A stretch of 64,000 nucleotides of DNA from the NCBI GenBank assembly GCA_964564035.1, contig CAZLZN010000004.1:10632-74631 (forward strand). Reading direction: 5' to 3'. Within the stretch, counting starts at the first letter, position 1. Each line of letters begins with the position of its first letter. Position numbers and translations under genes: made by a program. The notes under the pieces are model-generated. The model saw nothing but the letters and a program-made list of their open reading frames with translations. It was not told where the DNA came from and ran no database searches. Shown piece by piece: positions 3,006-32,358 of the stretch. The DNA is from an uncultured Gammaproteobacteria bacterium. GTDB taxonomy: Bacteria > Patescibacteriota > Microgenomatia > Levybacterales > UBA12049.

Positions 3006-3030
3006 AATTTAGCTAAAAATATCCTATAAT

Positions 3031-3696: not shown

Positions 3697-3733
3697 TCAT
3701 TGTCAATTGGTGATTTAATTGTATAATTGATTT

Positions 3734-4783: not shown

Positions 4784-4829
4784 AAAAAGTATTGTTAGGA
4801 ATTAATTTAAATGCTAGAATAATCTTCAT

Positions 4830-5048: not shown

Positions 5049-5084
5049 TGAGCAAGCTTTATTCCGGTCAAAATCATTTATAGT

Positions 5085-6918: not shown

Positions 6919-7021
6919 AGCTAAATAATCATAATAACTATAAAATAAAAAGTCAATTTGAATCAACAGCTTGACAAACGGCAATACATGAGCTTATTAT
7001 TAAAATAGAGTTAACTCATAT

Positions 7022-10564: not shown

Positions 10565-10643
10565 ACAAAAGATTATGACAATAAACATTTACAAAGAGAG
10601 GGGGTGGACTAAATTATTAAGGTAAACACTTAATAAAATCGTT

Positions 10644-10925
10644 ATGAGTGGCTCACCAATTGACAGTCCTAGTTTCGCAATTATAGTAATCTATTCATTA
10701 GTAGTCGCTCTTATAATCCCATTTCTCGTCGGATTCTTTATTTCTTTTTTTATTCTGAAGCGTGTTTTTATAGATAAAAAAAGCAAAAAGTACCCAATAA
10801 ATAAAAATATTCACATATTAATTATTTTGCTCGTTTCCGGGTTATTTGGATGGCTAACAGTAATATTTTTAGGAAACTATTTCGGAGATATTGGTAATTA
10901 TGTTATCGAATTTACATCAAAATAA
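10644..10925 (+). CDS. small membrane protein, paralog 1 of a local family
   Basis: Two or three TM helices. Shares the motif IPFLVGFFISFFILKRVFIDKKSKKY with ORF 11118..11384 (TPFLVGSLLSFFILKRIFIDKKKKKY). Confidence 0.6.
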   Translation: MSGSPIDSPSFAIIVIYSLVVALIIPFLVGFFISFFILKRVFIDKKSKKYPINKNIHILIILLVSGLFGWLTVIFLGNYFGDIGNYVIEFTSK

Positions 10926-11117
10926 TTGACGTATAATTACCTCGCCGAGCGCGATTACCACGCCATACGAGCATCACGGAACACACGGAAGCATGGATTA
11001 TGCTTGAGAAGATAAACAGGAATTAGTAATCCTGCAACTATTTACGGAGCAAGGAAGACTGAAGTATGGATATTAAGTTTATCAATAAATAGATCAAATG
11101 AGGAGAGGTGATAGCAT

Positions 11118-11384
11118 ATGTTTTTTCCTGGTGAGGAGGGGATTGTATTGATAATCATTGTTGGGTTTCTCTTCGCGATACTAACTCCGTTTCTTGTCGG
11201 ATCTTTACTTTCTTTTTTTATACTGAAACGAATTTTTATCGACAAAAAAAAGAAAAAGTATTTAAAAGACAAACAAGCGCGAATCATAATTTCAATATTT
11301 ATATCAATATTATTTGGATACTTATCAATTGTATTTTTTGGTGAAGAAATAAATAAATATATTATTAATTTATTATCGAGATAA
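11118..11384 (+). CDS. small membrane protein, paralog 2
   Basis: Paralog of 10644..10925 (same PFLVG..SFFILKR.FIDKK.KKY core). A strong SD-like GAGGAGAGGTGA lies 6 nt upstream of the ATG. Confidence 0.6.
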   Translation: MFFPGEEGIVLIIIVGFLFAILTPFLVGSLLSFFILKRIFIDKKKKKYLKDKQARIIISIFISILFGYLSIVFFGEEINKYIINLLSR

Positions 11385-11508
11385 CTACTACCTACTATAC
11401 ATCTGATAATTTGCCTTAGATTTAAGTATAAAATACTAATATTATGTAATATACGGGGAGAGGAGGTGAAGCAAATTATTAGGTAATTAAACCTTAATTT
11501 AAAAAATT

Positions 11509-11753
11509 ATGACTTTAGGATATGGATATGGTATAGCAGTAATATATTCAATTGTAGCGTCCTTGTAATTCCCTTTCTAGTCGGATTCTTTATTTCATTT
11601 TTTATACTGAAGTGCATTCTGTCTCACAAAAAGAATAGATTTTATGTAAGATCACCTAAAAAACGTATTGTATTAGTGCTTGCTCTTGCATCTATAATTG
11701 GATTTTTGTGTTTTTATATACCATACACTTTACGGTTATCGGGATATTTATGA
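11509..11753 (+). pseudogene. small membrane protein, paralog 3, frameshifted
   Basis: ATG 11509 runs into TAA at 11566-11568. The conserved core (VIPFLVGFFISFFILKC..) is read in another frame up to TGA 11751-11753. Alignment to paralog 1 DNA shows a 1-nt deletion (gtagtcgctctt vs gtagcgtcctt). The upstream leader is homologous to that of paralog 1. Confidence 0.55.
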
Positions 11754-11761
11754 TATATAGT

Positions 11762-11984
11762 GATGATGCTATCCAGATCTGGAACGTACTCTTGACCTGC
11801 CCGGTAATAATCAACGCCTATGTGATAAACAGGACAACCACACAGGCCCCAAAGAGGACGGTGCATTAGAAGTCGGTAGCCCCGGTTCGTCATATGACTA
11901 TCTAAGAGGTTCTAAATTTATTGATCTTCCGGAAGGCGGAAACTACACTGTCCAAAACAAAAGCAACAAATGAGGGAAGCTGTG
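11762..11984 (+). pseudogene. decayed fragment homologous to the lipase-domain region of the 7022..10564 gene
   Basis: The DNA aligns by eye to ~9239..9620 of the large gene, with an internal deletion. For example, ccccggttcgtcatatgactatctaagaggttctaaatttattgatcttccggaaggcggaaactac matches ccccggctcgtcctatgactatctgagggattctaaatttatctatctgccggaaggcgaaaactat. The fragment contains stops and has no start. Confidence 0.6.
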
Positions 11985-12059
11985 AAAACTCATACTGTAA
12001 ACGGCATGTTTTTTGCTGCAGCACAAGCTACCACAGGTGGGATATAGAAAATTCGACCC

Positions 12060-14501: not shown

Positions 14502-14512
14502 ATTGTCGAAAG

Positions 14513-15508
14513 TTAGCGGTCTATAGTAGATACATATTTATATATAGTCCTGGATAAATGTTTCATTCTTTCGCGTGCTGTATTTTCGTCACTTACCGAA
14601 AACATGCACAATAAATACGGCCTTCTGGGTTCATAAACAATTCCACAATCCCTGAAGCCCTGAGTGCCGTCTTTGGCTTCAAAGTCACCAATCTTATGCG
14701 CTACAGGAATTTGAGGGGGGACGCCAGCGGCAAGCTTATCCGAGAATTTGGTTTTTGTAAGTAAGTCCAAAATTTCATTCGAAGAATCTTTGCTCAAAAC
14801 TGACGAGAAATAAAGCGCTTTCAGAATGGATGAGTAGTTCTTAGCCGATATCAACGCTCCGGCGTTATCTGATCTAAGATCAATATCCAAAGCCTGGTAA
14901 ACTTCATTGAAGTCTTCATCTTTGATATACGGAGATAGCATTTTTACTGCGGTATTATCGGATTCTTCAAGTGTTAGCCGAACAACCTCCGATGTTTTTA
15001 ATTTCGTCCCTACTCCTCTCTGCCATAAATCACCAAAGTTTTTATCGATGTGTTCTTCCATCAATACAAGCTCGGGATCTCCCTGCATTTTGGTTCTTTC
15101 TTTGTAATGATAATATGCCATAACTACAGGAACTTTGAATAGAGACGCGGCGTAAAACTCGACTTTCTCATTTACGCCAATTGATGTGCCGGTTGGGAGA
15201 TATTCAAAATAAAAGCCAAAAGTGAGACCATACGGTTTCACCTGCTCACGAAGCTGCGTTCTGAGTTCGAGATAATTTATCAATAGATCCTGGGGAAATT
15301 CCTGATGTATTCTTTTTGAAAGTAATGGATATTTTAGCTCTGCGGCAGATACATTGTTTGCCTGATTAACTTCATCATGGTTGCTGAAATAATATATAAT
15401 AAAACCGATATTGGCAAGCAAGCTGAGGGTTAGTATATAAAGAAAAATATTTTTTTTACGCATAAAAACCGGATGGTTGGCATAGAACTCAGGCCTTAAC
15501 ATCCTCAT
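14513..15508 (-). CDS. membrane-anchored serine hydrolase, class A beta-lactamase-like fold
   Basis: N-terminal TM helix. SxxK (AASLFKV), SDN (EESDNTA) and a KTG-like HKIGD motif occur in the expected order. Confidence 0.7.
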   Translation of the reverse strand: MRMLRPEFYANHPVFMRKKNIFLYILTLSLLANIGFIIYYFSNHDEVNQANNVSAAELKYPLLSKRIHQEFPQDLLINYLELRTQLREQVKPYGLTFGFYFEYLPTGTSIGVNEKVEFYAASLFKVPVVMAYYHYKERTKMQGDPELVLMEEHIDKNFGDLWQRGVGTKLKTSEVVRLTLEESDNTAVKMLSPYIKDEDFNEVYQALDIDLRSDNAGALISAKNYSSILKALYFSSVLSKDSSNEILDLLTKTKFSDKLAAGVPPQIPVAHKIGDFEAKDGTQGFRDCGIVYEPRRPYLLCMFSVSDENTARERMKHLSRTIYKYVSTIDR

Positions 15509-15562
15509 CGATATTTATTATAATCATAAATGTGATGATTTATAAACAGGTAAAATAAGTTC

Positions 15563-16384
15563 ATGAATTTTCTCTATAAACTACAAGCCCTTTCAATAAA
15601 AAACAACTCGCTTGTTTGCGTAGGACTCGACAGTGACGCTAATAAAATACCACAGCAAATTAAAAAAGGTGATTATTCAATTTTTGAATTTAATAAGAGA
15701 ATTATTGACAGTACTCATGACCTTGTATGCGCATATAAGCCGAATTCTGCTTTCTATGAAGCATTTGGAAATAAGGGTCTGGTCGAGTTAAAGATGACTT
15801 GTGATTATATTAAGCATAAATATTCGGAAATACCAATAATCCTGGACGCGAAACGCGCGGATATTGGAAATACAAACAAAGGTTATATCAGATATGCATT
15901 TGATTATCTGGCTGCGGATGCGATTACTTTGAATCCTTATCTTGGCCGCGAGGCTCTAGCGCCGTTTCTTAATCTTTCGGAGAAAGGATGTGTTATTTTA
16001 TGTAAGACGTCTAATGCGGGGGCAGGGGAGCTTCAAGATTTGATTGTGGAGGGCGAACCGTTATATTTAAGAGTTGCCAAAAAAGTCTCATCAGAATGGA
16101 ACAAGAATAATAATTGCCTACTTGTAGCAGGCGCCACTTATCCTACCGAACTTAAGGCTATAAGAGAGGCGGCGGGGGATATGTTTTTGCTCGTTCCTGG
16201 TGTAGGCGCGCAAGGAGGGGATATAAAATCATTTGTTACAGCAGGTTTAAATTCCAAAAACTCAGGCTTGATTATTAATTCTTCAAGAGCTATTATTTAC
16301 GCATCAAGCGGGGAGGATTTTGCGATTAAAGCGCGTGAAGAAGCAAAGAAATTAAGAGATCAGATCAATAAATATCGAATCTGA
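15563..16384 (+). CDS. pyrF: orotidine 5'-phosphate decarboxylase (type 2)
   Basis: ..VCVGLDSD.., ..ILDAKRADIGNT.., and ..LLVPGVGAQGG... Adjacent to pyrE. Confidence 0.9.
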   Translation: MNFLYKLQALSIKNNSLVCVGLDSDANKIPQQIKKGDYSIFEFNKRIIDSTHDLVCAYKPNSAFYEAFGNKGLVELKMTCDYIKHKYSEIPIILDAKRADIGNTNKGYIRYAFDYLAADAITLNPYLGREALAPFLNLSEKGCVILCKTSNAGAGELQDLIVEGEPLYLRVAKKVSSEWNKNNNCLLVAGATYPTELKAIREAAGDMFLLVPGVGAQGGDIKSFVTAGLNSKNSGLIINSSRAIIYASSGEDFAIKAREEAKKLRDQINKYRI

Positions 16385-16409
16385 AAGCCTTAATTAATGA
16401 TTCTAACTT

Positions 16410-17042
16410 ATGGATAACGAGGTTTTAGAAATACTTAAAAAGACAAATACGATTAACGACAATAGTCATTTTGTTTATACATCAGGCAAGCATGCCAAGT
16501 CTTACGTTAATAAAGACGCGATTTTTCCTCATACCAAATACACATCGAGAATCGCGGAGCTTATTGCCGAAAAATTCCGGGACTCTGCAATTGACGTAGT
16601 TGCAGGGCCATCGCTCGGAGGAATTATTTTGTCACAGTGGACAGCCTATCATCTGTCTAAATTAAAGAGCAAAGAAATTCTCAGTGTCTATACAGAAAAA
16701 ACCACTGACAAAGACCAGATATTAACGAGGGGATATGATAAGCTGGTAAAGAATAAAAACGTACTTATAGTTGAGGATATTGTTACAACAGGCGGTTCTG
16801 TAAAAAAAGTTATTAAGAGTATTTTAAGAGCCGGAGGTAAAGTTACAGCGGTTTGTTCAATTGTTAATAAAGATCCAGAACATATTGATCCTGATTATAT
16901 CGGCGCTCCATATGTTTATTTAACGACTTATGACACGCAGGTTTATGATGAAAAAGATTGTCCGCTTTGTAGACAGAATATTCCTATAAATACAACTCTT
17001 GGACATGGAAAAAAATATCTGGAAGGTAAAATAGGTAATTGA
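16410..17042 (+). CDS. pyrE: orotate phosphoribosyltransferase
   Basis: PRPP-binding loop VLIVEDIVTTGGS in a type I PRTase fold. Follows pyrF. Confidence 0.85.
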   Translation: MDNEVLEILKKTNTINDNSHFVYTSGKHAKSYVNKDAIFPHTKYTSRIAELIAEKFRDSAIDVVAGPSLGGIILSQWTAYHLSKLKSKEILSVYTEKTTDKDQILTRGYDKLVKNKNVLIVEDIVTTGGSVKKVIKSILRAGGKVTAVCSIVNKDPEHIDPDYIGAPYVYLTTYDTQVYDEKDCPLCRQNIPINTTLGHGKKYLEGKIGN

Positions 17043-17073
17043 CAAAAGTGAAAAAATATCGTTCAATAGTATT

Positions 17074-17835
17074 ATGCATACTGCCAGCCGACCAATAATC
17101 GTTTCGCTTGTAACAGTTTTATTTGTTTTTATATGTCTTACCTTATTTTTTAAGCTTTTCGGTCCCATCCCGTTTTTTGTCCAGAATGTAACTACGACTA
17201 AAGAGTCACTTTTCATGGCTGAGGGCACCGGTGAAGTTACGATAATTCCGGACACAGCGCTTATCTCATTTGGTGTTACAAAAACAGCTTCAACAGTCGA
17301 ACAGGCTAAAAACGATGTAAATACTATATCTAATAAAATTACAGAGGATTTGAAAAAGCTTGGTGTGGATGTCAAGAATATTAAGACCACAAATTACTCG
17401 GTTAATCCGCAATATGACTATTCCAGAGGGGGCCAAAGGATAACAGGGTACACTGTTGATACCAATATTCAAGTTAAGCTGCAACCAATTGACAAAGCAA
17501 ATGATGCTGTCGATATCGCGACAGCAGACGGCGCAAACCAAGTAGGTGGTATCCAGTTCGTCGTTGACGATAAAAAACAAAAAGAACTGGAAAATGAAGC
17601 GAGAAAGCTTGCGATCGAGGACGCCAAAGACAAAGCAAAAAGTATTGCCGATGCAGCGGGAATTAAGTTGGGTAGAATTGTCGATGTGAGAGTGAACCCG
17701 ATCAATAATTTTGCTCCAATGCCGGTCATGAGAGATCTTGCAATGGGTAACGCAGAAAAAGCTCCCGAGACACAGCTTAATCCCGGCGAGAACAAGGTCA
17801 TGATGACCGTCAGCCTCTCCTACGAGACCTATTAA
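17074..17835 (+). CDS. SIMPL domain (DUF541) protein
   Basis: N-terminal TM helix, then a pattern typical of SIMPL/26 kDa periplasmic immunogenic proteins (..GYTVDTNIQVKL.. ..AKDKAKSIADAAGIKLGRIV..LNPGE..V..V..). Confidence 0.8.
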   Translation: MHTASRPIIVSLVTVLFVFICLTLFFKLFGPIPFFVQNVTTTKESLFMAEGTGEVTIIPDTALISFGVTKTASTVEQAKNDVNTISNKITEDLKKLGVDVKNIKTTNYSVNPQYDYSRGGQRITGYTVDTNIQVKLQPIDKANDAVDIATADGANQVGGIQFVVDDKKQKELENEARKLAIEDAKDKAKSIADAAGIKLGRIVDVRVNPINNFAPMPVMRDLAMGNAEKAPETQLNPGENKVMMTVSLSYETY

Positions 17836-18115
17836 TATTTGTCATTTGCCATTGATCCATCCGGCATTTGCTTATAATTTATTTAATAAACTGCGACTGA
17901 AATTGTTTGTGATTTATTGGAAATATTTTACTTACAATCATGCATTAATGCCTGATCTGAATATATATATTATTTCGTGAATAATCTAAGCGCGTTTATA
18001 TACATTAGAATAAGTAAACTAGAGAGATGGGGGGTAATTATATTTGGGGGATATAATCTATGACTTAACCATTCATCGTTAACAAAGCCGCGGAGAGTAT
18101 TGTAGAATTTAAAAT

Positions 18116-19048
18116 TCACTTGTTTCCGGAATGGAATGTTTTGTGAACTTCTCTTAACTGCTTGTTTGTAATGTGTGTATATATTTGGGTAGTCGCGATG
18201 TTTTTGTGACCGAGCATTTCCTGTACGGATCTAATATCAGCCCCATTGGTCAGTAGATCAGTCGCGAAACTATGTCTCAAAGTATGAACAGTCGCATCAA
18301 CAGGTAAGCGCGCAAGTTTAACATATTTTTTGATTATCCGCTCAACGCTTCTGGGGGTAAGCCTCATCTTCTCTCCGCGGTTTTCTTCATTTTTTTTACC
18401 TGAATAGCGGATAAATAATGGCCTATACGGATCCAGTCTGATTTTCAGATAATTGCCGATCCAGTCCGCAGCCCTGTCGGAAATAAAAACAATTCTCGAT
18501 TTGCCGCCTTTGCCAATCACACCGAATTCTCGTCTTTCTAGATTGATTTGTTCATGATTGAGTTTGGTTAATTCACTCACGCGAAGTCCGGTTGAAAATA
18601 GAAGCTCCATTATTGCCCTGTCCCGGGTGCCTTCTTCCGTTGATGTATCAGGCATTGTAACCAGGCGGTCTATTTGTTCACGCTCTAAAAACTTCAAACT
18701 GCGGCTTTCTGTTTTGGGCAGATCTATCTTGGAGGGCTCAAGCGTATTAATATCATTTTTGATAAGAAATCTGAGAAACGACCTGAGGGCGATAACGTAA
18801 TAATTTTGAGTAACCTTTTTGAGACCTTTTTCTTTGGCGTCTTTTACATTTGATAAATATACCCTATATTTTCTAATACTTTGTAAATTCAAATCAGCCA
18901 GTGTTTTTTGAGGCATTTCGCGCTTAAACCAATTCTCAAAAACCACCAAATAATGCCTGTAGTCTCTGATCGTAAGTTTGCTGCAATTTTTTTCTATCTC
19001 CAGATACTCCAGGAAATTCTGTATGTGTTCTTTTAGCGGATCATTCAT
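18116..19048 (-). CDS. tyrosine site-specific recombinase, XerC/XerD family
   Basis: N-terminal SAM-like core-binding domain. C-terminal catalytic motifs ..GLRVSEL.., ..HTLRHSFATDLLTNGADIRSVQEMLGHKNIATTQIYTH... Confidence 0.9.
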   Translation of the reverse strand: MNDPLKEHIQNFLEYLEIEKNCSKLTIRDYRHYLVVFENWFKREMPQKTLADLNLQSIRKYRVYLSNVKDAKEKGLKKVTQNYYVIALRSFLRFLIKNDINTLEPSKIDLPKTESRSLKFLEREQIDRLVTMPDTSTEEGTRDRAIMELLFSTGLRVSELTKLNHEQINLERREFGVIGKGGKSRIVFISDRAADWIGNYLKIRLDPYRPLFIRYSGKKNEENRGEKMRLTPRSVERIIKKYVKLARLPVDATVHTLRHSFATDLLTNGADIRSVQEMLGHKNIATTQIYTHITNKQLREVHKTFHSGNK

Positions 19049-19157
19049 AGTTTAAAAGACGGCTGATTTAGATAACTTTAACTGATACCTGACAAAAAAG
19101 TCAATATTTTGTTTGATTTCTGTCAAGTAGTTTAATTTTATTTAATTTAATCTTAGG

Positions 19158-21164
19158 ATGCCAAAATTATACTTTTTTATGATTTACCCGGCAATTGATA
19201 GTTCGACAACTATTTTTCAAAGGAGGGGAGAGAGAAAAATAATTTTTAAAGAAATTGTTGAATTATCCCCATTGCCGGTATTGATTGTGAATGCTGCTAC
19301 AAATGAGATTGAATACGCTAATGGTGCATGGGAACAGGCAACCGGATACACACTGGACGAAGTAAAGGGTAGAAATCCCAATATTCTAAAAAGCGGCCGA
19401 ACACCAAAGGAAATTCATAACCAAATCCGCAAGCACCTGAGAGAAGGCAGAATTTATAAAACAGAACTGTTATTTGATAAACGCAAAGACGGAAGCGAAT
19501 TTCAATTATCATCTACTTTTTATCCAATCCAACAGGATGAGAGAAATATTTTTTATGTACAGATAGAGCATGATATAACTGCGCGAAAAATTAAAGAAAA
19601 ATTCAAAACAATGCATATTAATATCGCGCTTTTACTTGCCGCGTCTGAAGACATTCTGAGTGCGGTACCTAAGACGCTTGAATATTTGTGCGAAGGAACA
19701 GGTTGGGAAATTGGGGAGCTGTGGCTTCTATCACGTGACAGCCGGGAGATGCAGTATGTTGGTGCGTGGCATAGTCCCAATTTAAATGTAAAAGAATACA
19801 TTGATAAAACTACTATCAAAACTTTTATGAAAGGAAAAGGCTTACCGGGTCGTGTATGGCAAACGGGAAAACCTGCATGGTATATAAATTCTCCGAATAA
19901 TTTATTTTTTAAAAATATTGAGAAATCATTTTCTTTCGGAATAAATACAGCTTTAGCATTTCCAATTCAAATAAATTTAAAAACTACAGGTGTACTAACA
20001 TTTTTTGCACGAGAAACTCATAAGCCGGACAATGAACTGCTTGAAACAATGAATATCCTGGGCAATCATCTCGGGCATTTCATTGAGCATAAACGTATGG
20101 AAGAAAAACTGGCTAATATGACCGTGAAACAGCGCTTGCTTCTTAATGCGATCGGACAAGGCGTATATGGAGTAGATACCAAAGGCAAACTGACGTTTAT
20201 TAACCCAGCTGCCGAAAATATGCTCGGATGGAGCACCGATGAACTTAAAGGCAAACGAATACACGATATTATTCATCACACAAAATCAGATACCGTAACG
20301 CCTTTAAAATATTATCAGTGTCCGAATGTAAAGGTCAGAAAAAAAATAGGAAATCCAATACAAATTGATAAAGAAATATTTTGGAGGAAAGACGGAACTT
20401 ATTTTCCGGTAGAGTATGTAGTAACACCAATCCCTGAAAACAACAAAATTATCGGATCTGTTGTTACGTTCAGCGACATAACAAAAAGAAAACAGCTGGA
20501 AGAACTAAAAAAAGAGTTTTTGGCAACAGCGGCACATGAACTGAAAACTCCTATTACGTCATTAAAACTGCTGAGTCAATTACAACTAACAAAAATTAAA
20601 AATAATAAACCTGTAAATATTGAAGAGATGGCAAAAATAAATAATGAGCTTGAACGATTGACGCGAATAATAAACGATATTTTAGATGATCAAAGAATTG
20701 AAACCGGAAAGTTAAGTATTACAAAAAATAAAATAGATTTGTCTGTCTTGGTCAAAGATACAGTCGATCAAATTTCCAGTATATTCGGTAAAGTAAAAAT
20801 AATTTGCAAAGTCACACCCGGCATACTCGTGTTCGCGGATAGCGACAGGATCAGACAAGTAGTAACAAATTTGCTTACAAACGCAATCAAATATTCTTCC
20901 GATGATTCCGAAATTTTGGCCGAAGTTAAAAAAGCCAACAATAAGGCTCTGGTATCTATTTCTGATAAAGGGATAGGGATAAGTTCGGGGAAACAAGAAA
21001 AAATATTTGACCGCTTCTTTCAAATTCAGGAGGGCAAATCCGGATTTGGGCTCGGCCTTTACATATCAAAACAAATAATTAATCTGCATAATGGAAAAAT
21101 TTGGGTAAAATCAAGAGAAGGGGAGGGGAGTACTTTCCATTTCACGCTCACGCTGTTACAATAA
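19158..21164 (+). CDS. sensor histidine kinase (PAS-GAF-PAS-HisKA-HATPase_c), no adjacent response regulator
   Basis: H-box AAHELKTPITSL. N/G boxes ..LTNAIKYS.., ..DKGIGIS.., ..GFGLGLYISK... Upstream PAS (..GRNPNILKSG..) and GAF-like segments. The exact start is uncertain. Confidence 0.85.
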   Translation: MPKLYFFMIYPAIDSSTTIFQRRGERKIIFKEIVELSPLPVLIVNAATNEIEYANGAWEQATGYTLDEVKGRNPNILKSGRTPKEIHNQIRKHLREGRIYKTELLFDKRKDGSEFQLSSTFYPIQQDERNIFYVQIEHDITARKIKEKFKTMHINIALLLAASEDILSAVPKTLEYLCEGTGWEIGELWLLSRDSREMQYVGAWHSPNLNVKEYIDKTTIKTFMKGKGLPGRVWQTGKPAWYINSPNNLFFKNIEKSFSFGINTALAFPIQINLKTTGVLTFFARETHKPDNELLETMNILGNHLGHFIEHKRMEEKLANMTVKQRLLLNAIGQGVYGVDTKGKLTFINPAAENMLGWSTDELKGKRIHDIIHHTKSDTVTPLKYYQCPNVKVRKKIGNPIQIDKEIFWRKDGTYFPVEYVVTPIPENNKIIGSVVTFSDITKRKQLEELKKEFLATAAHELKTPITSLKLLSQLQLTKIKNNKPVNIEEMAKINNELERLTRIINDILDDQRIETGKLSITKNKIDLSVLVKDTVDQISSIFGKVKIICKVTPGILVFADSDRIRQVVTNLLTNAIKYSSDDSEILAEVKKANNKALVSISDKGIGISSGKQEKIFDRFFQIQEGKSGFGLGLYISKQIINLHNGKIWVKSREGEGSTFHFTLTLLQ

Positions 21165-21206
21165 ACCAAATAATCTCATCTAACGGATTATTCCTCTTTT
21201 ATAAAT

Positions 21207-22643
21207 ATGATTAGCGATCAATATCAGGATTGCCTGAAATACATAGATAAGTATTGGGAAAGGATTATTTTCAGGCCATCCAAAATGAAGCTCAGAAGCG
21301 GGTTAAAAAATGTACCCATCCTTATATCCAGCGTTAATCATAAGCTTTTTAAAAATAAAAAAATTAACAGGCTGTATGTTGAAATCCCCCATTATTATTT
21401 TGTTCCGAATGACAGAAAGTTCAAATATATTTTCTATTGGGATAGTTATTTTATGTTCAAGGGATTAGTCGGAACTAAACGTGAATGGCTTATGAAGGAA
21501 ATGGTCGAGAATTTTATATATCTATTTAACTATCTTCAGATAGTGCCTAATTTCAGCTCCAGGGCCGCGCTGGGACGCTCACAGCCGCCGTTCCTGTCTT
21601 CTATGATACTTGAGACATACAAGGCCCCCATAAACCGCAATAACTATTACAATTACGTAGGCAGTCTCCGGGGATTTATATACAGATTGTATTACAAGAG
21701 ATGGCTCAATAGATCAATGGATATAGCAAGGCAGGAGTATGAACTTGTCTGGATCGATAAAGACTGCTCATATAATCACAGTGTGCCCGGATATAAGCTA
21801 TCACGATACGGCGACCGGGACATAGGCTACGCGCACTCATCCGAGCTTGAATCAGGATGGGATATGACATCGAGATTTTACAGTAGATGTAATGAGTTTT
21901 TACCTGTTGATCTGAACTCTTATCTATATAAATATGAAATGGATTTTGCGGAATCCGCAAAAATTCTGGAAAACAAAGAAGATTTTGATTATTGGACTAA
22001 AAAAGCAAAAGAGAGACAAAGTGAGATAAATAAATATATGTGGGATGAACATACAGGGTTTTTTTATGATTACGGTTATTATTATAAAAGGCTTAGTAAA
22101 TTCTTATCTCTGGCCGGTTTTATGCCAATGTGGGCCGGGATAGCAACACCCGAGCAAGCCGAGCGCATGGTTAAAAAACTGCCAAAATTTGAAACCAAAT
22201 ACGGTCTTGCCATAACAGCTAAGGAGTCGCTCGCGCATCAAATAGATCTATCTAAAATTCAAACAAGGTTCAGATCCGCGATTGAATCTATTATTAAGCC
22301 CAAACAGTGGGATTATCCGAATATATGGTCTCCGCTTGAATATCTGACTGTTATTGGCTTACTGCGGTATGGATATATAAACGAGGCAAAAAGAATCATG
22401 ACTAATTCTATAAATGCTCATGCCGCCGCATATAGAAAGCACAAAACTTTTTTTGAAAAGCTAAATGGCGAAACCGGTGAATCCGGCTCAGGGGCTTTGT
22501 ACCGCGACCAGGACGGCTTTGGCTGGACAAATGCTGTATTTTACCGTTATATAAAACTACTTGAAGATATAGAGAGCTTAAAAACTATTTATGAAGAACC
22601 TCTTCAAGCCGAGCCTCCATATAACCTGGCTATCCTACACTAA
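21207..22643 (+). CDS. alpha,alpha-trehalase (GH37), cytoplasmic type
   Basis: Trehalase signature-like motifs PNDRKFKYIFYWDSYF and QWDYPNIWSPL, plus RSQPPFLSSM. No signal peptide. Confidence 0.85.
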   Translation: MISDQYQDCLKYIDKYWERIIFRPSKMKLRSGLKNVPILISSVNHKLFKNKKINRLYVEIPHYYFVPNDRKFKYIFYWDSYFMFKGLVGTKREWLMKEMVENFIYLFNYLQIVPNFSSRAALGRSQPPFLSSMILETYKAPINRNNYYNYVGSLRGFIYRLYYKRWLNRSMDIARQEYELVWIDKDCSYNHSVPGYKLSRYGDRDIGYAHSSELESGWDMTSRFYSRCNEFLPVDLNSYLYKYEMDFAESAKILENKEDFDYWTKKAKERQSEINKYMWDEHTGFFYDYGYYYKRLSKFLSLAGFMPMWAGIATPEQAERMVKKLPKFETKYGLAITAKESLAHQIDLSKIQTRFRSAIESIIKPKQWDYPNIWSPLEYLTVIGLLRYGYINEAKRIMTNSINAHAAAYRKHKTFFEKLNGETGESGSGALYRDQDGFGWTNAVFYRYIKLLEDIESLKTIYEEPLQAEPPYNLAILH

Positions 22644-23370
22644 TCCGACTCCCCTGCCTGAACCAAAGCGGGGAGAGGAGCACGGCAGGAATTACGAAGC
22701 TAATAAAAAAGCAGACAACTGTTCTTTGTGAAAAAAATGTTAAATATAGTCCCATAATATGTTATTGTGAATGTAACGAGTTAATTAAAAAAGGTACATG
22801 AATAACGGGAGAGCATTAATATACGACGCGGTATCATACGAATAATTAATTTAATTTTGAGGCATAAATGATAAAAATATTTAAGAGCTCCCCCGGCTTT
22901 CGTGCCTGCATGACGTCGTAAAAGTATTATTGTGCGACGTGATAAGATTGTTGTCCTCCGGTGCCTACCGGGCTTATTTTAATCGTATTTAAGTACGATG
23001 TATTTCTAATCATAAAAGACGGGAGAATTGCTTCCGAATGACGAATGACTACTGGCCATGACCGAAAAACGTATATTTTTAATTCAAGTACAATTGTTAA
23101 ATTACGGCTTACCTCCGACGTAAGAGCGGTCTATTATGTAGGTAAACACAGCAAGTCTTAAGCGCCTGCCGATTGTCCAGAAATTTATTAAATTTAAAAT
23201 TTTGTATACACATGTATAGAGAAGGCGTTATATTATGCGAAATTTATTTGCTTGCCAATAATGGTCAATATATTGTTTTTGAGTAAATGTTTTGTTTATT
23301 AAATGGTTCGTTGTAGCTCCTAAATATTTGAGGGGCCTTGTAGGGCTTTATATTGACAAGTAGTTTTAGG

Positions 23371-23382
23371 TTGATATATCAA
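23371..23382. repeat. perfect 12-bp palindrome TTGATATATCAA (copy 1), inside a ~38-bp repeat unit
   Basis: TTGATATATCAA is its own reverse complement. The unit ggttgatatatcaatctaaactcgttattttagcttca (23369-23406) recurs as gcttgatatatcaatataaacatgctattttgaggcta (23744-23781). A TTGACA hexamer lies at 23353-23358, so the palindrome overlaps a possible -10. Confidence 0.7.
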
Positions 23383-23745
23383 TCTAAACTCGTTATTTTA
23401 GCTTCATTAATAATATACATCTTATAAATTGGGCTTTCGTATTTTTTTCGAGCGACTCGAAACGCGCTATCAAGAGTACAACGAGATCAATATTTGTTAT
23501 TGTAAGACCATGTTTATTTATAAGATTAAGTATAAAAATATATCAAGATAATATTAAACTAGTTAACCAGTGAGAGTAAAATACATTTTATAGCTTAACA
23601 AGATAATAACTAATGATCAATAGTTTAGCTTGTAATTACGATATAAAGTTATATTTCTGAGGCTAATTTTCGATAATTTATTAGAATATATATTTTAAGC
23701 TTCCTCAATAAGCTATAGGAAAAGTAAATTCTCGTGCAATTTTGC

Positions 23746-23757
23746 TTGATATATCAA
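23746..23757. repeat. perfect 12-bp palindrome TTGATATATCAA (copy 2)
   Basis: An identical 12-mer lies 375 bp from copy 1, with similar flanks (see copy 1). Confidence 0.7.
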
Positions 23758-23947
23758 TATAAACATGCTATTTTGAGGCTAATATTTTCAAATTAATGCT
23801 TTTTTGTTACGGAGAGCAGTATCTGTGTTGTACGAGCTGAGAGCACACGTGGTCTTATAGTATATAGGCTTTAATGCAAACAGGCTTATTTAAGGCTATT
23901 TCTATGCTATTAGCACTGTGAAAAGTAGTAATATAGGCTGTGAAAAG

Positions 23948-23956
23948 TTATCCACA
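23948..23956 (+). promoter_or_regulatory. perfect DnaA-box consensus TTATCCACA, flanked by repeats
   Basis: TTATCCACA at 23948-23956. It is immediately preceded by the direct repeat ctgtgaaaagt (23916-23926 and 23938-23948). It is followed by the tandem 10-mer aactatatca x2 (23958-23977). This is the only perfect box I found, so its function is unproven. Confidence 0.3.
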
Positions 23957-24051
23957 TAACTATATCAAACTATATCATTTATGTTATAGGATCTACTCTA
24001 TTTTGATTATACTACTCTCTTATACTCTCTCCTCTTCCCTGCTCTTTTAGC

Positions 24052-24903
24052 TCATCCTGAAAAAACTATTAAAACAAAAATAACAATGAAACCAACCCAT
24101 GCATATTCCCATAAAATTCCTTTGAAAAATCTTTTTTCGAACCATATATGAGAGAGTCCGGCGACTATATAGAAAAAGCCTGTCAGGAAGAGCGATATAA
24201 TAGCCGGCTTGCTGGGCCAAAACCATAATATTGCGGCTAACTCTACAATGCATAGGGTTAATGCCAAAACCCAAATTGCCAAAGGTTGAGTGATTTTCTG
24301 AAGCGCATAGGTCCATAAAGAATGATAAAAAAGCAGATAAGTATACGCGAATAATAATAGCAATATCGGAAGTATGTTGACGCGCAGAGTATACAGTACG
24401 TTGGTTAACAGAAAAAAAGATACCAGGGTGACTACGAAGGAAACAATTCTGGCACCGGACAGTAAAGCAATAGTACGAGTTGAAGAGACAACCAAAATAT
24501 TTTGACTGAGGTAAAGTGAGTAAAGACCGAACGCGTATACAACTGCTAAAATAATTTTATAAATAAAATTCGGCGTCAAAAAGCAAAACAGGCCGAATGA
24601 TAAACTATAAAAGAATGGCAAAATAAAAATTTCATACATGAATTTATCTTTGATGTCTTTGTATAGGCCCCAAAAGAGGAAAGCATCTGTCAGGATAGCG
24701 AGTATAAACGATGTAATAATTCCCGATCTGTTGAACTGGAATTCTGTAAAAAGAAGACCAATAGTTAATATAAGGACACCGATAACGAACTTCTGTCTCT
24801 TCCCTATTGTTATGCTTAGTGACTTTCTAGCTCTTTTGGTTCTTGTCAGCAGTTTGCCAATATTCAGAAAATTACCGGCTGTAGTTCTATTTTTTAGACT
24901 CAT
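24052..24903 (-). CDS. hypothetical polytopic membrane protein
   Basis: 283 aa with roughly eight hydrophobic helices. No recognised motif. Confidence 0.6.
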   Translation of the reverse strand: MSLKNRTTAGNFLNIGKLLTRTKRARKSLSITIGKRQKFVIGVLILTIGLLFTEFQFNRSGIITSFILAILTDAFLFWGLYKDIKDKFMYEIFILPFFYSLSFGLFCFLTPNFIYKIILAVVYAFGLYSLYLSQNILVVSSTRTIALLSGARIVSFVVTLVSFFLLTNVLYTLRVNILPILLLLFAYTYLLFYHSLWTYALQKITQPLAIWVLALTLCIVELAAILWFWPSKPAIISLFLTGFFYIVAGLSHIWFEKRFFKGILWEYAWVGFIVIFVLIVFSG

Positions 24904-30638: not shown

Positions 30639-32156
30639 TTACTTCCTGAGGTAGTTCAGGAGCATGCGTACCCCGAAGCCTGTTGCGCCTTTGGGACTGA
30701 TGTCGCTTGCTTTGGATTGGAATGCTGATCCGGCGATGTCTAAATGAGCCCATGGCACATCTGACACAAACTCTTCTAAAAATAATGCTGCAGTTATCGT
30801 ACCGCCGTATCTGGTGTTTGGAATATTACAAATATCCGCGATGTCGCTTTTGTTCATTTTCTTATATTCTTCAACGAGCGGCAGTTCCCAGATTTTTTCT
30901 CCGGCTTCAAATGCTGAGGATTTGAGTTTGCGTGCCAAATCGGCATTGTTTGAAAATAACGCGCTTATATCCGGCCCCAGCGCAACCATAACTGCCCCGG
31001 TGAGAGTTGCGAGGTCTACAATTTCAGTTGCACCTTTCTGTACTGCATAACTGAGACTGTCAGCCAATGTTACCCTGCCTTCAGCATCGGTATCAAGAAT
31101 TTCAATCGTTTTACCGTTGAGGGCTTTTGCTACGTCGCCGGGAAGCGTCGAGTCTGCAGAGATCAAGTTCGGGGTGGCCGCAATCAAGCCTAACACATCA
31201 TGATCAGGTGCAATCTCCGAGATAACCGAAAATACCCCTAAGACAGCGGCAGCGCCTGCCATGTCCATTTTCATATCGATCATACTGCTTCCTGTTTTGA
31301 CATTTATGCCTCCGGAATCAAACGTAATCCCCTTGCCTACCAGCGCGATTTTCTTTTTTGATTTTTTATTTTCCGGAATATATTCAAGGTGGATAAACTT
31401 AGGCGGGATCTTGCTATGAGCGGCTTTGGCTATAGAAAAGAAAGCTCCCATCCCCATTTTGCGGACCTGTTCTATGTCCATGATTTTGCATATTATATGA
31501 TTTGGATTTTTTTTTGCTATATCAAGCGCAATATTTGCCAGGTACTCCGGAGTCGCTATAGCAGCTTGTTCATTTACCAGATCGCGTGCCAAAACTGCAG
31601 CCTTTGAATATAATTTCGCCTCTTTTATAGCGGATTCCATGACTTTCTTATCACCCTCCCCGCTATATGAGATAATTACCGACGCGAAATCACGTTCATT
31701 TTCGGTTTTTTTGTATTTGGCAAATTCGTATTTTCCGAGCATAAAACCTTCTGTGAACGCATGTATGATAGTTTTTAAATCGAATAACTTTTTGAAATCA
31801 TCGGGTATACTCAATGAAGCGGAATCAATTTTGTTTTTAAAATTTTGTGTAAATTTACCGGCCGCGCGTCTAAGAACATCTGCTGTGAAGTTAGATTTTT
31901 TTCCAAGACCGATCAATACAATACGTGAGTATAGGGTTTGTTTTGAGGTAATAATCGTCAGAATATCGCCTGTTTTTGCTTTGTATTTATCCAGTTCGCA
32001 AATTTTTGAGATCTGAGAATTAAGATCTGTATCAAGTTTTTTGAAATCTTCAAAATATGTAATTGTGCCGTTTTTGTCCGCACTTTCGAATACAAAAAGC
32101 AGAAGAGCGTCTGAGGAAATGTTGTCGATTTTATGGGAAGTTAATTCGAAATTCAT
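30639..32156 (-). CDS. pepA: leucyl aminopeptidase (M17)
   Basis: ..VGKGITFDSGG.., ..DTDAEGRVTLAD.. and ..GATGFGVR... Start set at MNFELTSHKI (32156). The ORF-track extension to 32375 runs antisense through the tRNA-Leu gene. Confidence 0.9.
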   Translation of the reverse strand: MNFELTSHKIDNISSDALLLFVFESADKNGTITYFEDFKKLDTDLNSQISKICELDKYKAKTGDILTIITSKQTLYSRIVLIGLGKKSNFTADVLRRAAGKFTQNFKNKIDSASLSIPDDFKKLFDLKTIIHAFTEGFMLGKYEFAKYKKTENERDFASVIISYSGEGDKKVMESAIKEAKLYSKAAVLARDLVNEQAAIATPEYLANIALDIAKKNPNHIICKIMDIEQVRKMGMGAFFSIAKAAHSKIPPKFIHLEYIPENKKSKKKIALVGKGITFDSGGINVKTGSSMIDMKMDMAGAAAVLGVFSVISEIAPDHDVLGLIAATPNLISADSTLPGDVAKALNGKTIEILDTDAEGRVTLADSLSYAVQKGATEIVDLATLTGAVMVALGPDISALFSNNADLARKLKSSAFEAGEKIWELPLVEEYKKMNKSDIADICNIPNTRYGGTITAALFLEEFVSDVPWAHLDIAGSAFQSKASDISPKGATGFGVRMLLNYLRK

Positions 32157-32231
32157 GGATTTTATTCTAGCATTTTCGGTGCTAAAAATAAAGATAAATG
32201 CTATAATAAATTGATTTTTTAAAAGATTTAG

Positions 32232-32316
32232 GCCGAGGTGGTGGAATGGCAGACACGAAGGTCTCAAAAACCTTTGAGGATTACACCTCGTGGGGGTTCG
32301 ACTCCCCCTCTCGGCA
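32232..32316 (+). tRNA. tRNA-Leu (anticodon CAA), class II with long variable arm
   Basis: Acceptor GCCGAGG/TCTCGGC. D arm GTG-GAATGGCAGA-CAC. Anticodon stem-loop AAGGT-CTCAAAA-ACCTT. Variable arm with GAGG..CCTC stem. T arm GGGGG-TTCGACT-CCCCC. Discriminator A. CCA is not encoded. Confidence 0.9.
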
Positions 32317-32358
32317 CAAATTGGGGAGGAGAAGTTTATCCTGAGCCAGGCCGAAGGA

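What the first reader, a model, noticed from the sequence alone, without database searches (positions are those of the whole stretch)
22644..24051. 1.4 kb ORF-free AT-rich gap exactly at a convergent coding-strand switch
- The other gaps in this window are short. The next largest are ~675 bp (filled with pseudogene debris), ~380 bp and ~300 bp.
- This gap is 1408 bp with no ORF of 60 aa or more in any frame. My hand translations gave only 7-38 aa fragments without SD sequences.
- It lies between the stop of the + strand trehalase gene and the stop of a - strand membrane-protein gene.
- By my tally of called CDS lengths, about 85% of coding sequence to the left is on the + strand and about 65% to the right is on the - strand.
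- That convergent polarity is what a replication terminus looks like, not an origin. A Xer-type recombinase gene sits 3.6 kb to the left.
- However, I could not find a full dif site, and the region holds a perfect DnaA box plus iteron-like repeats.
- Alternatives are a large non-coding RNA locus, a plasmid-type replication or partition cassette, or a fully decayed mobile element.
- The sequence itself does not explain what this region does.
Basis: partly seen in the sequence, partly recalled or inferred. Interest (0 to 1): 0.75.

Follow-up and report, generated by a model that had tools for sequence, protein, structure and literature searches.

The report
Conserved Xer recombination-site region
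The 1.4 kb gene-free stretch is not junk: it is a non-coding DNA region conserved across a whole group of ultra-small bacteria (Microgenomates), whose best-kept piece looks like the 28-bp target site of the nearby Xer recombinase, next to a conserved DnaA-binding box.

Summary
The gap at 22644-24051 is real: it has no ORF over 46 aa, about 30% GC and no Rfam match.

It is conserved. A 0.7-1.4 kb ORF-free stretch follows the DUF5656 membrane-protein gene in nearly all of about 80 Levybacteria genomes. The same sequence blocks recur in the same order and on the same strand.

The most conserved block is at window 22913-22940. It is a 28-bp imperfect palindrome, ACGTCGCACAA-TAATAC-TTTTACGACGT, with 11-6-11 Xer/dif-type architecture.

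In metagenomes, this motif always has a DUF5656 gene upstream (73/73). It nearly always has a Xer-type recombinase gene downstream on the same strand (67/72). Its left half-site recurs at the xer promoter in 84/115 loci.

In the window, the trehalase and histidine-kinase genes have been inserted between the site and xer (18116-19048).

A perfect DnaA box lies upstream of the site in 108/153 loci, always in one orientation.

GC skew does not switch at the gap (57/58 loci). The classical replication-terminus reading therefore fails its own test. However, Microgenomates are reported to have skew that never switches.

RNA structure and hidden coding are not supported.

Best reading: a Xer recombination (dif-type) locus with accessory and regulatory DNA. 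Confidence is moderate.

The parts
22644..24051 (.). Whole ORF-free, AT-rich conserved non-coding region
   Evidence: An equivalent ORF-free stretch follows the DUF5656 gene in about 70 relatives.
22913..22940 (-). 28-bp core, read on the minus strand as ACGTCGCACAA-TAATAC-TTTTACGACGT. It has two 11-bp inverted arms (9/11 identical in the window) and a 6-bp asymmetric centre. This is the candidate Xer (dif-type) recombination site.
   Evidence: It is the only perfect inverted half-site pair in the window. It is nearly invariant across 182 distinct sequences. It is linked to DUF5656 and xer.
22885..22912 (-). Conserved tail of block b3 (CAGGC...GGGGGAG), downstream of the core on the minus strand
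   Evidence: nhmmer block b3 was found in 73 loci.
22747..22757 (-). Block b4 (TTATGGGACTA; CCCCTACTATAGG in relatives), at a fixed distance from b3
   Evidence: Spacing of 163-197 nt from b3 in 58 loci. No conserved reading frame lies between them.
22646..22680 (.). GC-rich hairpin (CTCCCC...GGGGAG) at the trehalase end of the gap. It is terminator-like.
   Evidence: It is retained in L017, which lacks the trehalase gene.
23331..23457 (-). Block b2: GAAAAAAATACGAA, a GAAGCTAAAAT box and the palindrome TTTAGGTTGATA/TATCAATCTAAA (23365-23388)
   Evidence: Block b2 has 72 nhmmer hits (a few loci hit more than once, some on the opposite strand).
23740..23790 (+). Window-specific second copy of the b2 palindrome, with an inverted GAGGCTAA box
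   Evidence: 83% identical direct repeat of 23365-23399. It is absent from the more distant relatives in alignment A2 (L016, L017, L018, L021; the close relative L014 has sequence there that is not recognisably the same).
23914..23997 (-). Block b1: CCTATAAC (-10-like), GATATAGTTT x2, a DnaA box and two CTTTTCACAG boxes
   Evidence: Block b1 has 60 nhmmer hits (59 distinct loci).
23948..23956 (+). Perfect DnaA box TTATCCACA (TGTGGATAA on the minus strand)
   Evidence: It is present in one fixed orientation in 108/153 loci. The background is 12 boxes in 1.6 Mb.
23916..23947 (-). Two CTTTTCACAG boxes. Each matches the relaxed DnaA-box pattern TTWTNCACA at 8 of 9 positions.
   Evidence: TTTTCACA occurs at 1.59 per kb inside the element and 0.06 per kb outside.
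24007..24046 (-). Purine-rich tract (GGGAAGAGGAGAG...) directly after the DUF5656 stop codon
   Evidence: Conserved in most loci.
22858..22869 (+). One of five GAGGCTAA-type boxes in the gap. The others are at 23395-23406 (-), 23571-23582 (+), 23658-23669 (+) and 23774-23785 (+).
   Evidence: 5 of 12 window matches fall in the 1.4 kb gap. The motif is 25-fold enriched in the element across loci.
24052..24903 (-). DUF5656 gene, encoding a membrane protein with nine predicted long helices after a basic N-terminal tail (topology not tested). It is the invariable upstream partner of the element.
   Evidence: (73/73).
18116..19048 (-). Xer-type tyrosine recombinase gene, the downstream partner of the element
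   Evidence: It lies downstream on the same strand in 67/72 loci.
19158..22643 (+). Histidine-kinase and trehalase genes, lying between the site and xer on the opposite strand. They are read here as later insertions.
   Evidence: They are absent in L017 and L021 and in distant lineages, where xer starts 250-1500 nt after the core. The trehalase GC3 skew is out of line with its neighbours in L018's genome.

Best explanation
The gap is a conserved cis-acting DNA locus. It belongs to a three-part module found across Microgenomates: the DUF5656 membrane-protein gene, then a non-coding region, then a Xer-type recombinase gene.

**Core site (inferred function).** The core of the locus is a 28-bp site at window 22913-22940. 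It has two 11-bp inverted arms and a 6-bp asymmetric centre. I infer that this is the recombination site of the neighbouring Xer recombinase. That would make it a dif-type site of a single-recombinase module, like XerS/difSL, XerH/difH or XerA/dif.

**Inferred mechanism.**
- Two Xer monomers bind the two arms.
- Sister copies of the site synapse.
- Strand exchange across the 6-bp centre resolves chromosome dimers.
- In relatives, a single left-arm half-site sits on the xer promoter. This would let Xer regulate its own gene.

**Rest of the region (inferred function).** The remaining conserved pieces are a DnaA box with two related boxes, GAGGCTAA repeats, a 24-bp palindrome, purine tracts and AT-rich short repeats. 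I read these as accessory or regulatory protein-binding DNA, in the way that cer and psi carry accessory sequences beside their core.

**State in the window.** The trehalase and histidine-kinase genes were inserted between the site and xer.

**Shown versus inferred.**
- Shown: the conservation, the site architecture, the linkage to both genes, the recurrence of the half-site, and the intact catalytic residues of the recombinase.
- Inferred: binding, recombination and the dimer-resolution role.
For: **Conservation of the region**
- An ORF-free stretch follows the DUF5656 gene in almost all of 80 genome loci.
- Blocks b1, b2 and b3 occur in the same order and on the same strand, with 60-73 nhmmer hits each.

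**Architecture of the core**
- The core is an 11-6-11 imperfect palindrome. The consensus arms are 8/11 symmetric, and the window's arms are 9/11.
- It is the only perfect inverted half-site pair in the 64 kb window.
- Each metagenome contig carries exactly one match.

**Linkage to the two genes**
- DUF5656 lies upstream on the same strand in 73/73 loci, at protein identities down to about 25%.
- A Xer-like gene lies downstream on the same strand in 67/72 loci and is never upstream.
- In distant lineages, xer starts only 250-1500 nt after the core.

**Half-site at the xer promoter**
- The left-arm half-site GTCG[CT]A[CGT]AAT lies within 200 nt upstream of the xer start in 84/115 loci. By my estimate about 0.2 loci would show this by chance.
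- It either abuts a TTGACA -35 box or overlaps the -10 box.

**The recombinase**
- Its best solved relatives are XerD (1A0P) and XerA (4A8E). The R, K, H-x-x-R and H...Y motifs are present in the alignment.
- It scores 219.3 bits against the NCBIfam XerA model, whose cutoff is 220.

**Precedent**
- Single-recombinase Xer genes sit next to their dif site.
- cer is a 280-bp non-coding site with accessory sequences (PMC5357621).

**Alternatives that did not hold**
- No RNA covariation was found.
- No Rfam family matched.
- No conserved ORF was found.
Against: **Position on the chromosome**
- GC skew does not switch at the site in 57/58 loci. Bacterial dif sites normally lie within about 1.4% of the genome from the skew shift point (PMC3025954).
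- In the window genome, gyrB and gyrA lie about 31-36 kb away. The skew keeps one sign for at least 87 kb. On a classical bidirectional chromosome this position would be wrong for dif.

**Sequence and ascertainment**
- The arms resemble canonical dif only weakly.
- Near-invariance of the core in the 120 metagenome loci is partly by construction, because those loci were found by exact match to the motif.
- The window and its sister L014 lack the half-site at the xer promoter.

**Untested points**
- Whether a genome has a second Xer gene or a second site could not be tested.
- The same DNA pattern would also fit an operator for another dimeric protein.
Confidence: 0.5

Rival explanations
1. Classical replication terminus. 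The gap would be where two converging forks meet, and that would explain the convergent gene orientation.
For: - Coding strand switches from 86% plus to 65% minus at the gap.
- The same convergent arrangement is seen in relatives: on the DUF5656 strand, 471 versus 97 genes to the left and 91 versus 252 to the right.
- A Xer gene and a dif-type site are present.
Against: - Strand-corrected GC skew has the same sign on both flanks in 38/42 loci. GC3 skew agrees in 57/58 loci.
- In the window, GC3 skew is +0.09 for plus-strand genes and +0.08 for minus-strand genes across all 64 kb.
- Genes on the far side of the gap have the skew of lagging-strand genes.
Confidence: 0.05
2. Replication origin, or a joint origin/terminus region. 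DnaA would bind the conserved box cluster and open nearby AT-rich DNA, and the dif-type site would sit beside the origin. This would fit a chromosome that is replicated mostly in one direction.
For: - A perfect DnaA box occurs in one fixed orientation in 108/153 loci. It is about 70-fold enriched over the flanks, and it is accompanied by two TTTTCAC boxes in 132/153 loci.
- AT-rich short tandem repeats lie just after the core in many loci.
- Some Microgenomates have a monotonic cumulative GC skew. Their origin and terminus have been proposed to be close together but have not been located (PMC7143001).
- In unidirectionally replicating Pseudoalteromonas chromids, dif2 lies 4-27 kb from ori2 (PMC7858055).
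- gyrB, gyrA, dnaB and rpsR-ssb-rpsF, which are origin-proximal genes in Firmicutes and Actinobacteria (from my own knowledge), lie within about 20-45 kb.
- GC3 skew reaches 0.5-0.75 on both sides of the element in L018's genome.
Against: - There is only one perfect DnaA box.
- Only two DnaA-trio-like triplets adjoin it, whereas at least three are required (PMC8287927).
- No dnaA gene was found in any of about 200 loci.
- The skew has the opposite sign relative to the element in the window and in L014. The element therefore does not fix fork direction.
- A genome-wide skew pattern for Levybacteria could not be obtained. Three loci spanning 278 kb in OY970292.1 share one sign, which is not decisive.
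Confidence: 0.15
3. A long non-coding RNA, or a long 3' UTR of the yebC-DUF5656 operon. It would be made from the minus strand, would end at the GC hairpin, and might act together with the DUF5656 membrane protein in the way OLE RNA acts with OapA.
For: - The region is strictly linked to a membrane-protein gene, always on the same strand.
- No terminator follows the DUF5656 stop codon, but a hairpin with a T-run closes the region in many loci.
- The b3-b4 spacing is fixed although the sequence between them varies.
- The closing pair of the b3 stem tolerates U-G only on this strand.
Against: - RNAalifold finds only the invariant 5-bp stem.
- The flanking pairs do not exceed shuffled controls.
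- Folding z-scores are -1.6 and -1.35 on the two strands.
- No Rfam family matched.
- The conserved blocks look like DNA sites: a DnaA box, palindromes, -10 and -35 hexamers, and a half-site reused at a promoter.
- The G>C excess of the region equals the mutational GC3 skew of its flanks.
Confidence: 0.1
4. A purely transcriptional control region. The 28-bp palindrome would be an operator for a dimeric regulator, for example YebC, that also controls the xer promoter. No recombination would occur at the site.
For: - The half-site recurs exactly at the xer promoter.
- -10-like hexamers and a DnaA box are conserved.
- A YebC/PmpR-family DNA-binding regulator gene lies directly upstream in many loci.
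Against: - The half-site centres are 17 bp apart. This fits tyrosine-recombinase cores (11-6-11) better than helix-turn-helix dimers, which usually need about 10 or 21 bp (my own knowledge).
- In most Levybacteria the site lies between convergent genes and kilobases from xer, yet it is kept intact.
- The asymmetric centre is also conserved.
Confidence: 0.15
5. Decayed mobile element or pseudogene debris.
For: The region is AT-rich, full of repeats and free of ORFs.
Against: - The position, order and sequence of the blocks are conserved in lineages whose DUF5656 proteins are only 25-77% identical.
- The viral contig scan found no match.
- No conserved reading frame was found.
Confidence: 0.02

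Closest known systems
Single-recombinase Xer modules: XerS/difSL (streptococci and lactococci), XerH/difH (Helicobacter and Campylobacter), XerA/dif (archaea)
   Same: - One Xer-family tyrosine recombinase gene is genetically linked to a 28-31 bp site.
- The site has two imperfect inverted arms of about 11 bp and a short centre (PMC5357621).
- Here the layout is 11-6-11, the same as archaeal dif. The protein scores at the XerA cutoff.
   Different: - The arm sequences are unrelated to difSL or difH and only weakly like canonical dif.
- The site lies in a 0.5-1.4 kb conserved non-coding region with a DnaA box and other motifs.
- It is always preceded by a DUF5656 gene.
- It is not at a GC-skew switch.
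- Binding and recombination have not been tested.
Plasmid Xer sites cer and psi with accessory sequences
   Same: A core of about 30 bp lies inside a non-coding region of a few hundred bp. The rest of that region binds accessory proteins such as ArgR, PepA and ArcA (PMC5357621). This would account for conserved motifs at fixed distances from the core.
   Different: - This locus is chromosomal, much longer and conserved across a phylum-level lineage.
- The accessory proteins are unknown.
- A PepA-family (M17) gene lies 6.5 kb away in the window, but only in the closest relatives.
oriC and non-origin DnaA-box clusters (datA and DARS in E. coli; DnaA-box clusters in B. subtilis)
   Same: An intergenic, AT-rich region carries a conserved high-affinity DnaA box and adjacent weaker boxes in fixed orientation.
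   Different: - There is only one perfect box.
- The DnaA-trio rule is not met.
- There is no skew minimum.
- No dnaA gene is nearby.
- The resemblance to the DARS box arrangement rests on my memory only.
dif2 next to ori2 in unidirectionally replicating Pseudoalteromonas chromids; monotonic GC skew of Microgenomates Ch65, Collierbacteria and Beckwithbacteria
   Same: - A dif-type site lies close to origin-type features.
- The flanks show strong GC skew of the same sign (PMC7858055; PMC7143001).
   Different: - In the chromids the origin, the initiator and the replication direction were shown by experiment.
- Here neither an origin nor genome-wide skew could be established.
OLE RNA with the membrane protein OapA
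   Same: A large conserved non-coding region is tightly linked to a gene for a multi-pass membrane protein of unknown function.
   Different: There is no covariation, no Rfam match, and the conserved blocks are DNA-type motifs.

Membership tests
Xer/dif single-recombinase module | Xer-family tyrosine recombinase with the catalytic R-K-H-R-H/W-Y residues | tested here: met
   - Pfam matches Phage_integrase and the SAM-like N-terminal domain.
- Best solved relatives are XerD and XerA. RDRA..., GKGGK, HTLRH and LGH...IYTH are aligned.
- NCBIfam scores are XerC 251 bits, XerD 249 bits and XerA 219.3 bits. All are just below their equivalog cutoffs.
Xer/dif single-recombinase module | Site of 28-31 bp with two inverted arms of about 11 bp and a 6-11 bp central region | tested here: met
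   ACGTCGCACAA-TAATAC-TTTTACGACGT at 22913-22940. The arms are 9/11 symmetric in the window and 8/11 in the consensus.
Xer/dif single-recombinase module | Site genetically linked to the recombinase gene | tested here: met
   The xer gene lies downstream on the same strand in 67/72 loci. In distant lineages it starts 250-1500 nt after the site.
Xer/dif single-recombinase module | One site per chromosome | tested here: inconclusive
   There is one site in the 64 kb window and one per contig in 120 metagenome contigs. Whole genomes could not be scanned.
Xer/dif single-recombinase module | Site lies at the replication terminus, at the GC-skew shift point | tested here: not met
   No sign change occurs in 57/58 loci or across the window. 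The test may lack power in a lineage with monotonic skew (PMC7143001).
Xer/dif single-recombinase module | Recombinase binds and recombines the site | not testable with these tools
   This needs a gel-shift and cleavage assay, or an in vivo plasmid-resolution assay.
Bacterial oriC | Cluster of DnaA boxes | tested here: inconclusive
   There is one perfect box and two boxes that match TTWTNCACA at 8 of 9 positions. All are conserved and in fixed orientation.
Bacterial oriC | DnaA-box, spacer, then at least three DnaA-trios (basal unwinding system) | tested here: not met
   Only two trio-like triplets (TAG TAA) adjoin the box. The rule comes from PMC8287927.
Bacterial oriC | Cumulative GC-skew minimum | tested here: not met
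   Both flanks have the same sign.
Bacterial oriC | Next to dnaA or dnaN (common but not universal) | tested here: not met
   No DnaA-like ORF was found in about 200 loci covering roughly 10 kb on each side. gyrB and gyrA lie 17-36 kb away.
Structured non-coding RNA | Conserved secondary structure supported by covariation | tested here: not met
   - Only an invariant 4-5 bp stem was found, with a single compensatory variant (TTCG/CGAA) in 182 sequences.
- The flanking pairs are at shuffle level.
- Folding z-scores are about -1.5.
Structured non-coding RNA | Match to a described RNA family | tested here: not met
   Rfam 15 gave no match in the gap at gathering scores or at E-values up to 10.

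The most novel reading that the evidence does not exclude
The element marks the place where replication of Microgenomates chromosomes both begins and ends. On this reading, a DnaA-box cluster and the Xer/dif site sit within about 0.5-1 kb of each other, beside gyrBA and dnaB. Most or all of the chromosome is copied by a single fork travelling in one direction. This would locate the origin and terminus that Kadnikov et al. (2020) proposed to be close together to explain monotonic GC skew. It would also explain why a dif-type site shows no skew switch.
Probability: 0.12. Interest if true: 0.85.

Novelty: new variant of a known kind. Interest (0 to 1): 0.6.

Why it matters
- **A candidate target site for candidate-phyla Xer proteins.** Xer-related recombinases of candidate phyla have been recognised as a separate 'Cand' subgroup (PMC8138268). 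I found no description of their target site. If the 28-mer is that site, it gives a sequence-defined landmark in the chromosomes of Microgenomates, which are uncultured bacteria.
- **An open question becomes testable.** The site is linked to a conserved DnaA box and shows no skew switch. The question raised by the monotonic GC skew of Microgenomates (PMC7143001) is where replication starts and ends, and whether it runs in one direction. That can now be tested on complete genomes and by read-depth profiles.
- **A first functional lead for DUF5656.** The invariable linkage ties this membrane-protein family to chromosome recombination or segregation.

Tried and rejected
- **Known RNA families.** Rfam at gathering and permissive thresholds, and tRNA/tmRNA scans, found nothing in the gap.
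- **Hidden small gene.** I tested for a hidden gene between b3 and b4. No reading frame is consistently open.
- **RNA structure.** RNAalifold on 57 sequences found only the invariant stem. Pair statistics on 182 sequences showed no covariation beyond base composition. The proposed helix between the G-run and a C/T-run about 70 nt downstream could not be separated from chance, because G-U pairing in pyrimidine-rich sequence always finds a partner. Folding z-scores were weak on both strands. One z-score script timed out.
- **General promoter motif.** GAGGCTAAAAT and CCTATAAT were tested as general promoter motifs. The first is specific to the element. The second occurs at chance frequency in the window.
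- **b2 palindrome as dif.** Its second arm is poorly conserved in distant relatives.
- **Contig breaks as evidence of recombination.** Contigs do end at the core more often than expected: 6 within 30 nt against 1.5 expected. Two contigs of the window strain end at 22912-22915. However, identical sequence shared by co-occurring strains explains this more simply.
- **Viral or plasmid origin.** The viral contig scan gave no hits.
- **DUF5656 fold.** The model has a mean pLDDT of 79.5. It has no significant match in the PDB.
- **Genome-wide skew.** I tried to test genome-wide skew with distant loci. The HisS loci turned out to be syntenic with the element. One carB locus 250 kb away in OY970292.1 shares the skew sign, which is not decisive.
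Full report
**1.

- Between the trehalase stop (22643) and the stop of the minus-strand 283-aa gene (24052), no frame has an ORF of 60 aa or more. The longest are 46, 41 and 40 aa.
- GC drops to 0.30.
- The next largest true gap is 675 bp.
- Coding length is 86% plus-strand to the left and 65% minus-strand to the right.
- The flanking genes are a trehalase, a PAS/GAF histidine kinase, a Xer-like integrase (18116-19048, minus strand), YebC and a DUF5656 membrane protein.
- Record titles of relatives place the organism in Candidatus Levybacteria, part of the Microgenomates within the Patescibacteria (CPR).
- The same strain is 100% identical over this region in several public samples.

**2. The gap is a conserved element**

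- Contigs encoding DUF5656 homologs at 73-95% identity carry an ORF-free stretch of 872-1362 bp at the same place. This includes a genome without the trehalase gene.
- A scan of one genome per species returned 80 loci. Nearly all that extend far enough have 0.7-1.4 kb without ORFs after DUF5656.
- Overall the gap evolves fast. It is 63% identical between strains whose DUF5656 proteins are 95% identical.
- It nevertheless contains short, strongly conserved blocks. Profile searches gave 60-73 hits per block, in the order b1-b2-b3 on the DUF5656 strand apart from a few secondary b2 hits.
- The blocks, listed in the order they occur on the DUF5656 (minus) strand:

| Block | Window position | Content |
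|---|---|---|
| Purine tract | 24007-24046 | Directly follows the DUF5656 stop codon |
| b1 | 23914-23997 | A TATAAT-like hexamer, GATATAGTTT x2, TGTGGATAA (a perfect DnaA box) and two CTTTTCACAG boxes |
| b2 | 23331-23457 | GAAAAAAATACGAA, a GAGGCTAAAAT box and a 24-bp palindrome |
| b3 | 22885-22947 | The 28-bp core and a G-run |
| b4 | 22747-22757 | Lies 163-197 nt after b3 |
| Closing hairpin | 22646-22680 | GC-rich |

- GAGGCTAA boxes are 25-fold enriched in the element, and TTTTCACA boxes about 26-fold.

**3. It is not an RNA gene or a hidden protein gene, as far as can be tested**

- Rfam finds nothing.
- No reading frame is consistently open between b3 and b4.
- RNAalifold on 57 sequences predicts only a 5-bp stem in b3.
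- In 182 distinct sequences, the four core pairs are invariant, with one compensatory variant. The flanking pairs do not exceed shuffled controls.
- Folding z-scores are -1.6 and -1.35 on the two strands.
- The G>C excess of the region equals the mutational skew of its flanks.

**4. The key turn: a module with the xer gene**

- I scanned metagenome contigs for the b3 core.
- Every locus with at least 1.6 kb upstream has a DUF5656 homolog upstream on the same strand (73/73). Protein identity goes down to about 25%.
- Of 72 loci with at least 6 kb downstream, 67 have a Xer-like gene downstream. It is always on the same strand and never upstream.
- In distant lineages, xer begins only 250-1500 nt after b3.
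- The ancestral layout is therefore DUF5656, then the non-coding region, then xer.
- In the window, the histidine-kinase and trehalase genes lie in between on the opposite strand. Their content varies among close relatives.
- In L018's genome, the trehalase has a GC3 skew out of line with its neighbours. This fits a later insertion.

**5. The b3 core has the form of a Xer site**

- On the DUF5656 strand, the consensus is ATGTCGCACAA-TAATAC-TTTTACGACGT. It has two 11-bp arms that are 8/11 inverted-identical (9/11 in the window) and a conserved asymmetric 6-bp centre.
- This 11-6-11 layout is that of dif and of archaeal dif (PMC5357621).
- In the window, it is the only perfect inverted half-site pair.
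- The left-arm half-site recurs within 200 nt upstream of the xer start in 84/115 loci. In distant lineages it abuts a TTGACA -35 box. In Levybacteria it overlaps the -10 box of an apparently leaderless xer mRNA.
- The window and L014 lack this half-site.
- The recombinase has the catalytic residues. Its closest solved relatives are XerD and XerA. It scores at the XerA cutoff.
- In known single-recombinase systems, the dif site is adjacent to the xer gene.
- Xer-related proteins of candidate phyla have been classed as a 'Cand' subgroup (PMC8138268). I found no description of their site.

**6. The terminus test fails, with a caveat**

- Strand-corrected GC skew has the same sign on both flanks in 38/42 loci.
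- The cleaner third-codon-position skew gives these values on the DUF5656 strand:

| Flank and gene strand | GC3 skew |
|---|---|
| Left, plus-strand genes | 0.146 |
| Left, minus-strand genes | 0.200 |
| Right, minus-strand genes | 0.146 |
| Right, plus-strand genes | 0.129 |

- Both flanks are positive in 55/58 loci. Both are negative in the window and L014.
- In the window, the plus strand is G-rich at third positions for genes on both strands across all 64 kb, and for a further 10 kb to the left.
- The gap is therefore not a skew extremum. Bacterial dif normally lies within about 1.4% of the genome from one (PMC3025954).
- The caveat is that complete genomes of Microgenomates Ch65, Collierbacteria and Beckwithbacteria show monotonic cumulative skew. 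Their authors propose that origin and terminus lie close together, and they did not locate either (PMC7143001).
- Close relatives of the window organism have very strong same-sign GC3 skew, up to 0.5-0.75.
- In unidirectionally replicating Pseudoalteromonas chromids, dif2 lies 4-27 kb from ori2 (PMC7858055).

**7. Origin-type features**

- A perfect DnaA box lies between DUF5656 and b3 in 108/153 loci, always in one orientation. The background is 12 boxes in 1.6 Mb.
- It stands alone as a perfect box.
- The DnaA-trio rule is not met.
- No dnaA gene was seen in about 200 loci.
- gyrB and gyrA lie 8-13 kb left of the window start (about 31-36 kb from the gap). In L018's genome they lie 17 kb from the element. 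The cluster is inverted between the two genomes, in step with the skew sign.
- dnaB and rpsR-ssb-rpsF lie on the other side of the element.
- I could not obtain genome-wide skew. Three loci spanning 278 kb of OY970292.1 share one sign.

**8. Verdict**

- The best-supported reading is a Xer recombination (dif-type) locus embedded in accessory or regulatory DNA. It forms a conserved module with DUF5656 and xer. Confidence is about 0.5.
- Binding, recombination and the dimer-resolution role are inferred.
- The classical terminus reading is contradicted.
- An origin, or a joint origin/terminus, remains possible and is the most interesting open reading.
- An RNA reading and a plain operator reading are weaker alternatives.

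Noticed in passing
window 1-64000, and L222 (10 kb to the left of the window): Third-codon-position GC skew is about +0.08 on the plus strand for genes on both strands, over at least 87 kb. In this genome, the DUF5656-side genes (yebC, efp and others) are therefore on the C-rich strand. In 55 of 58 related loci the reverse holds.
   Followed up: partly
L223 (L018's genome), 6500-23100: GC3 skew is extreme (-0.5 to -0.77) whatever the gene strand. It drops sharply over the gyrB/peptidase C1 segment (1-6500). This is the strand disparity reported for other Microgenomates, seen here in a close relative of the window organism.
   Followed up: partly
L222 1-4943 versus L223 1-3164: The gyrB-pyrophosphatase-gyrA cluster is inverted between the window genome and L018's genome. 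In each genome it stays co-oriented with the fork direction implied by the skew.
   Followed up: no
window 10644-10925 and 11118-11384: Two paralogous small ORFs (93 and 88 aa, predicted membrane proteins sharing the FILKR.FIDKK motif) sit in an AT-rich stretch. A 675-bp ORF-free gap follows them.
   Followed up: no
window 30639-32155: This is a leucyl aminopeptidase (M17, PepA family) gene 6.5 kb from the element. In E. coli, PepA is an accessory factor of Xer recombination at cer and psi. The gene is nearby only in the closest relatives.
   Followed up: partly
window 32200-32317: tRNA-Leu(CAA) is preceded by TGCTATAAT, an extended -10 promoter. This shows that the organism uses sigma-70-type -10 boxes.
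   Followed up: no
window 22912-22915 (ends of contigs L009 and L011), and 81 complete metagenome contigs: Assembly contigs end at the edge of the 28-bp core more often than expected: 6 within 30 nt against 1.5 expected. The likely cause is that the core is identical among co-occurring strains and so breaks the assembly graph.
   Followed up: partly
loci L113, L194, L199, L207 and others, 200-300 nt after b3: In distant lineages, a conserved hairpin-like motif (GGCCTTAGAATCGATTTGGTGAAGCC, whose closing pairs vary) and repeated AAACCCGAA motifs lie between the core and xer. They are absent from the window.
   Followed up: no
L222 9664-9948: A gene for a 23S rRNA intervening-sequence protein (94 aa) sits between carA and carB, just left of the window start.
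   Followed up: no
window 24052-24903: The DUF5656 protein models as nine long helices after a disordered basic N-terminal tail (mean pLDDT 79.5). It has no significant fold match in the PDB.
   Followed up: partly
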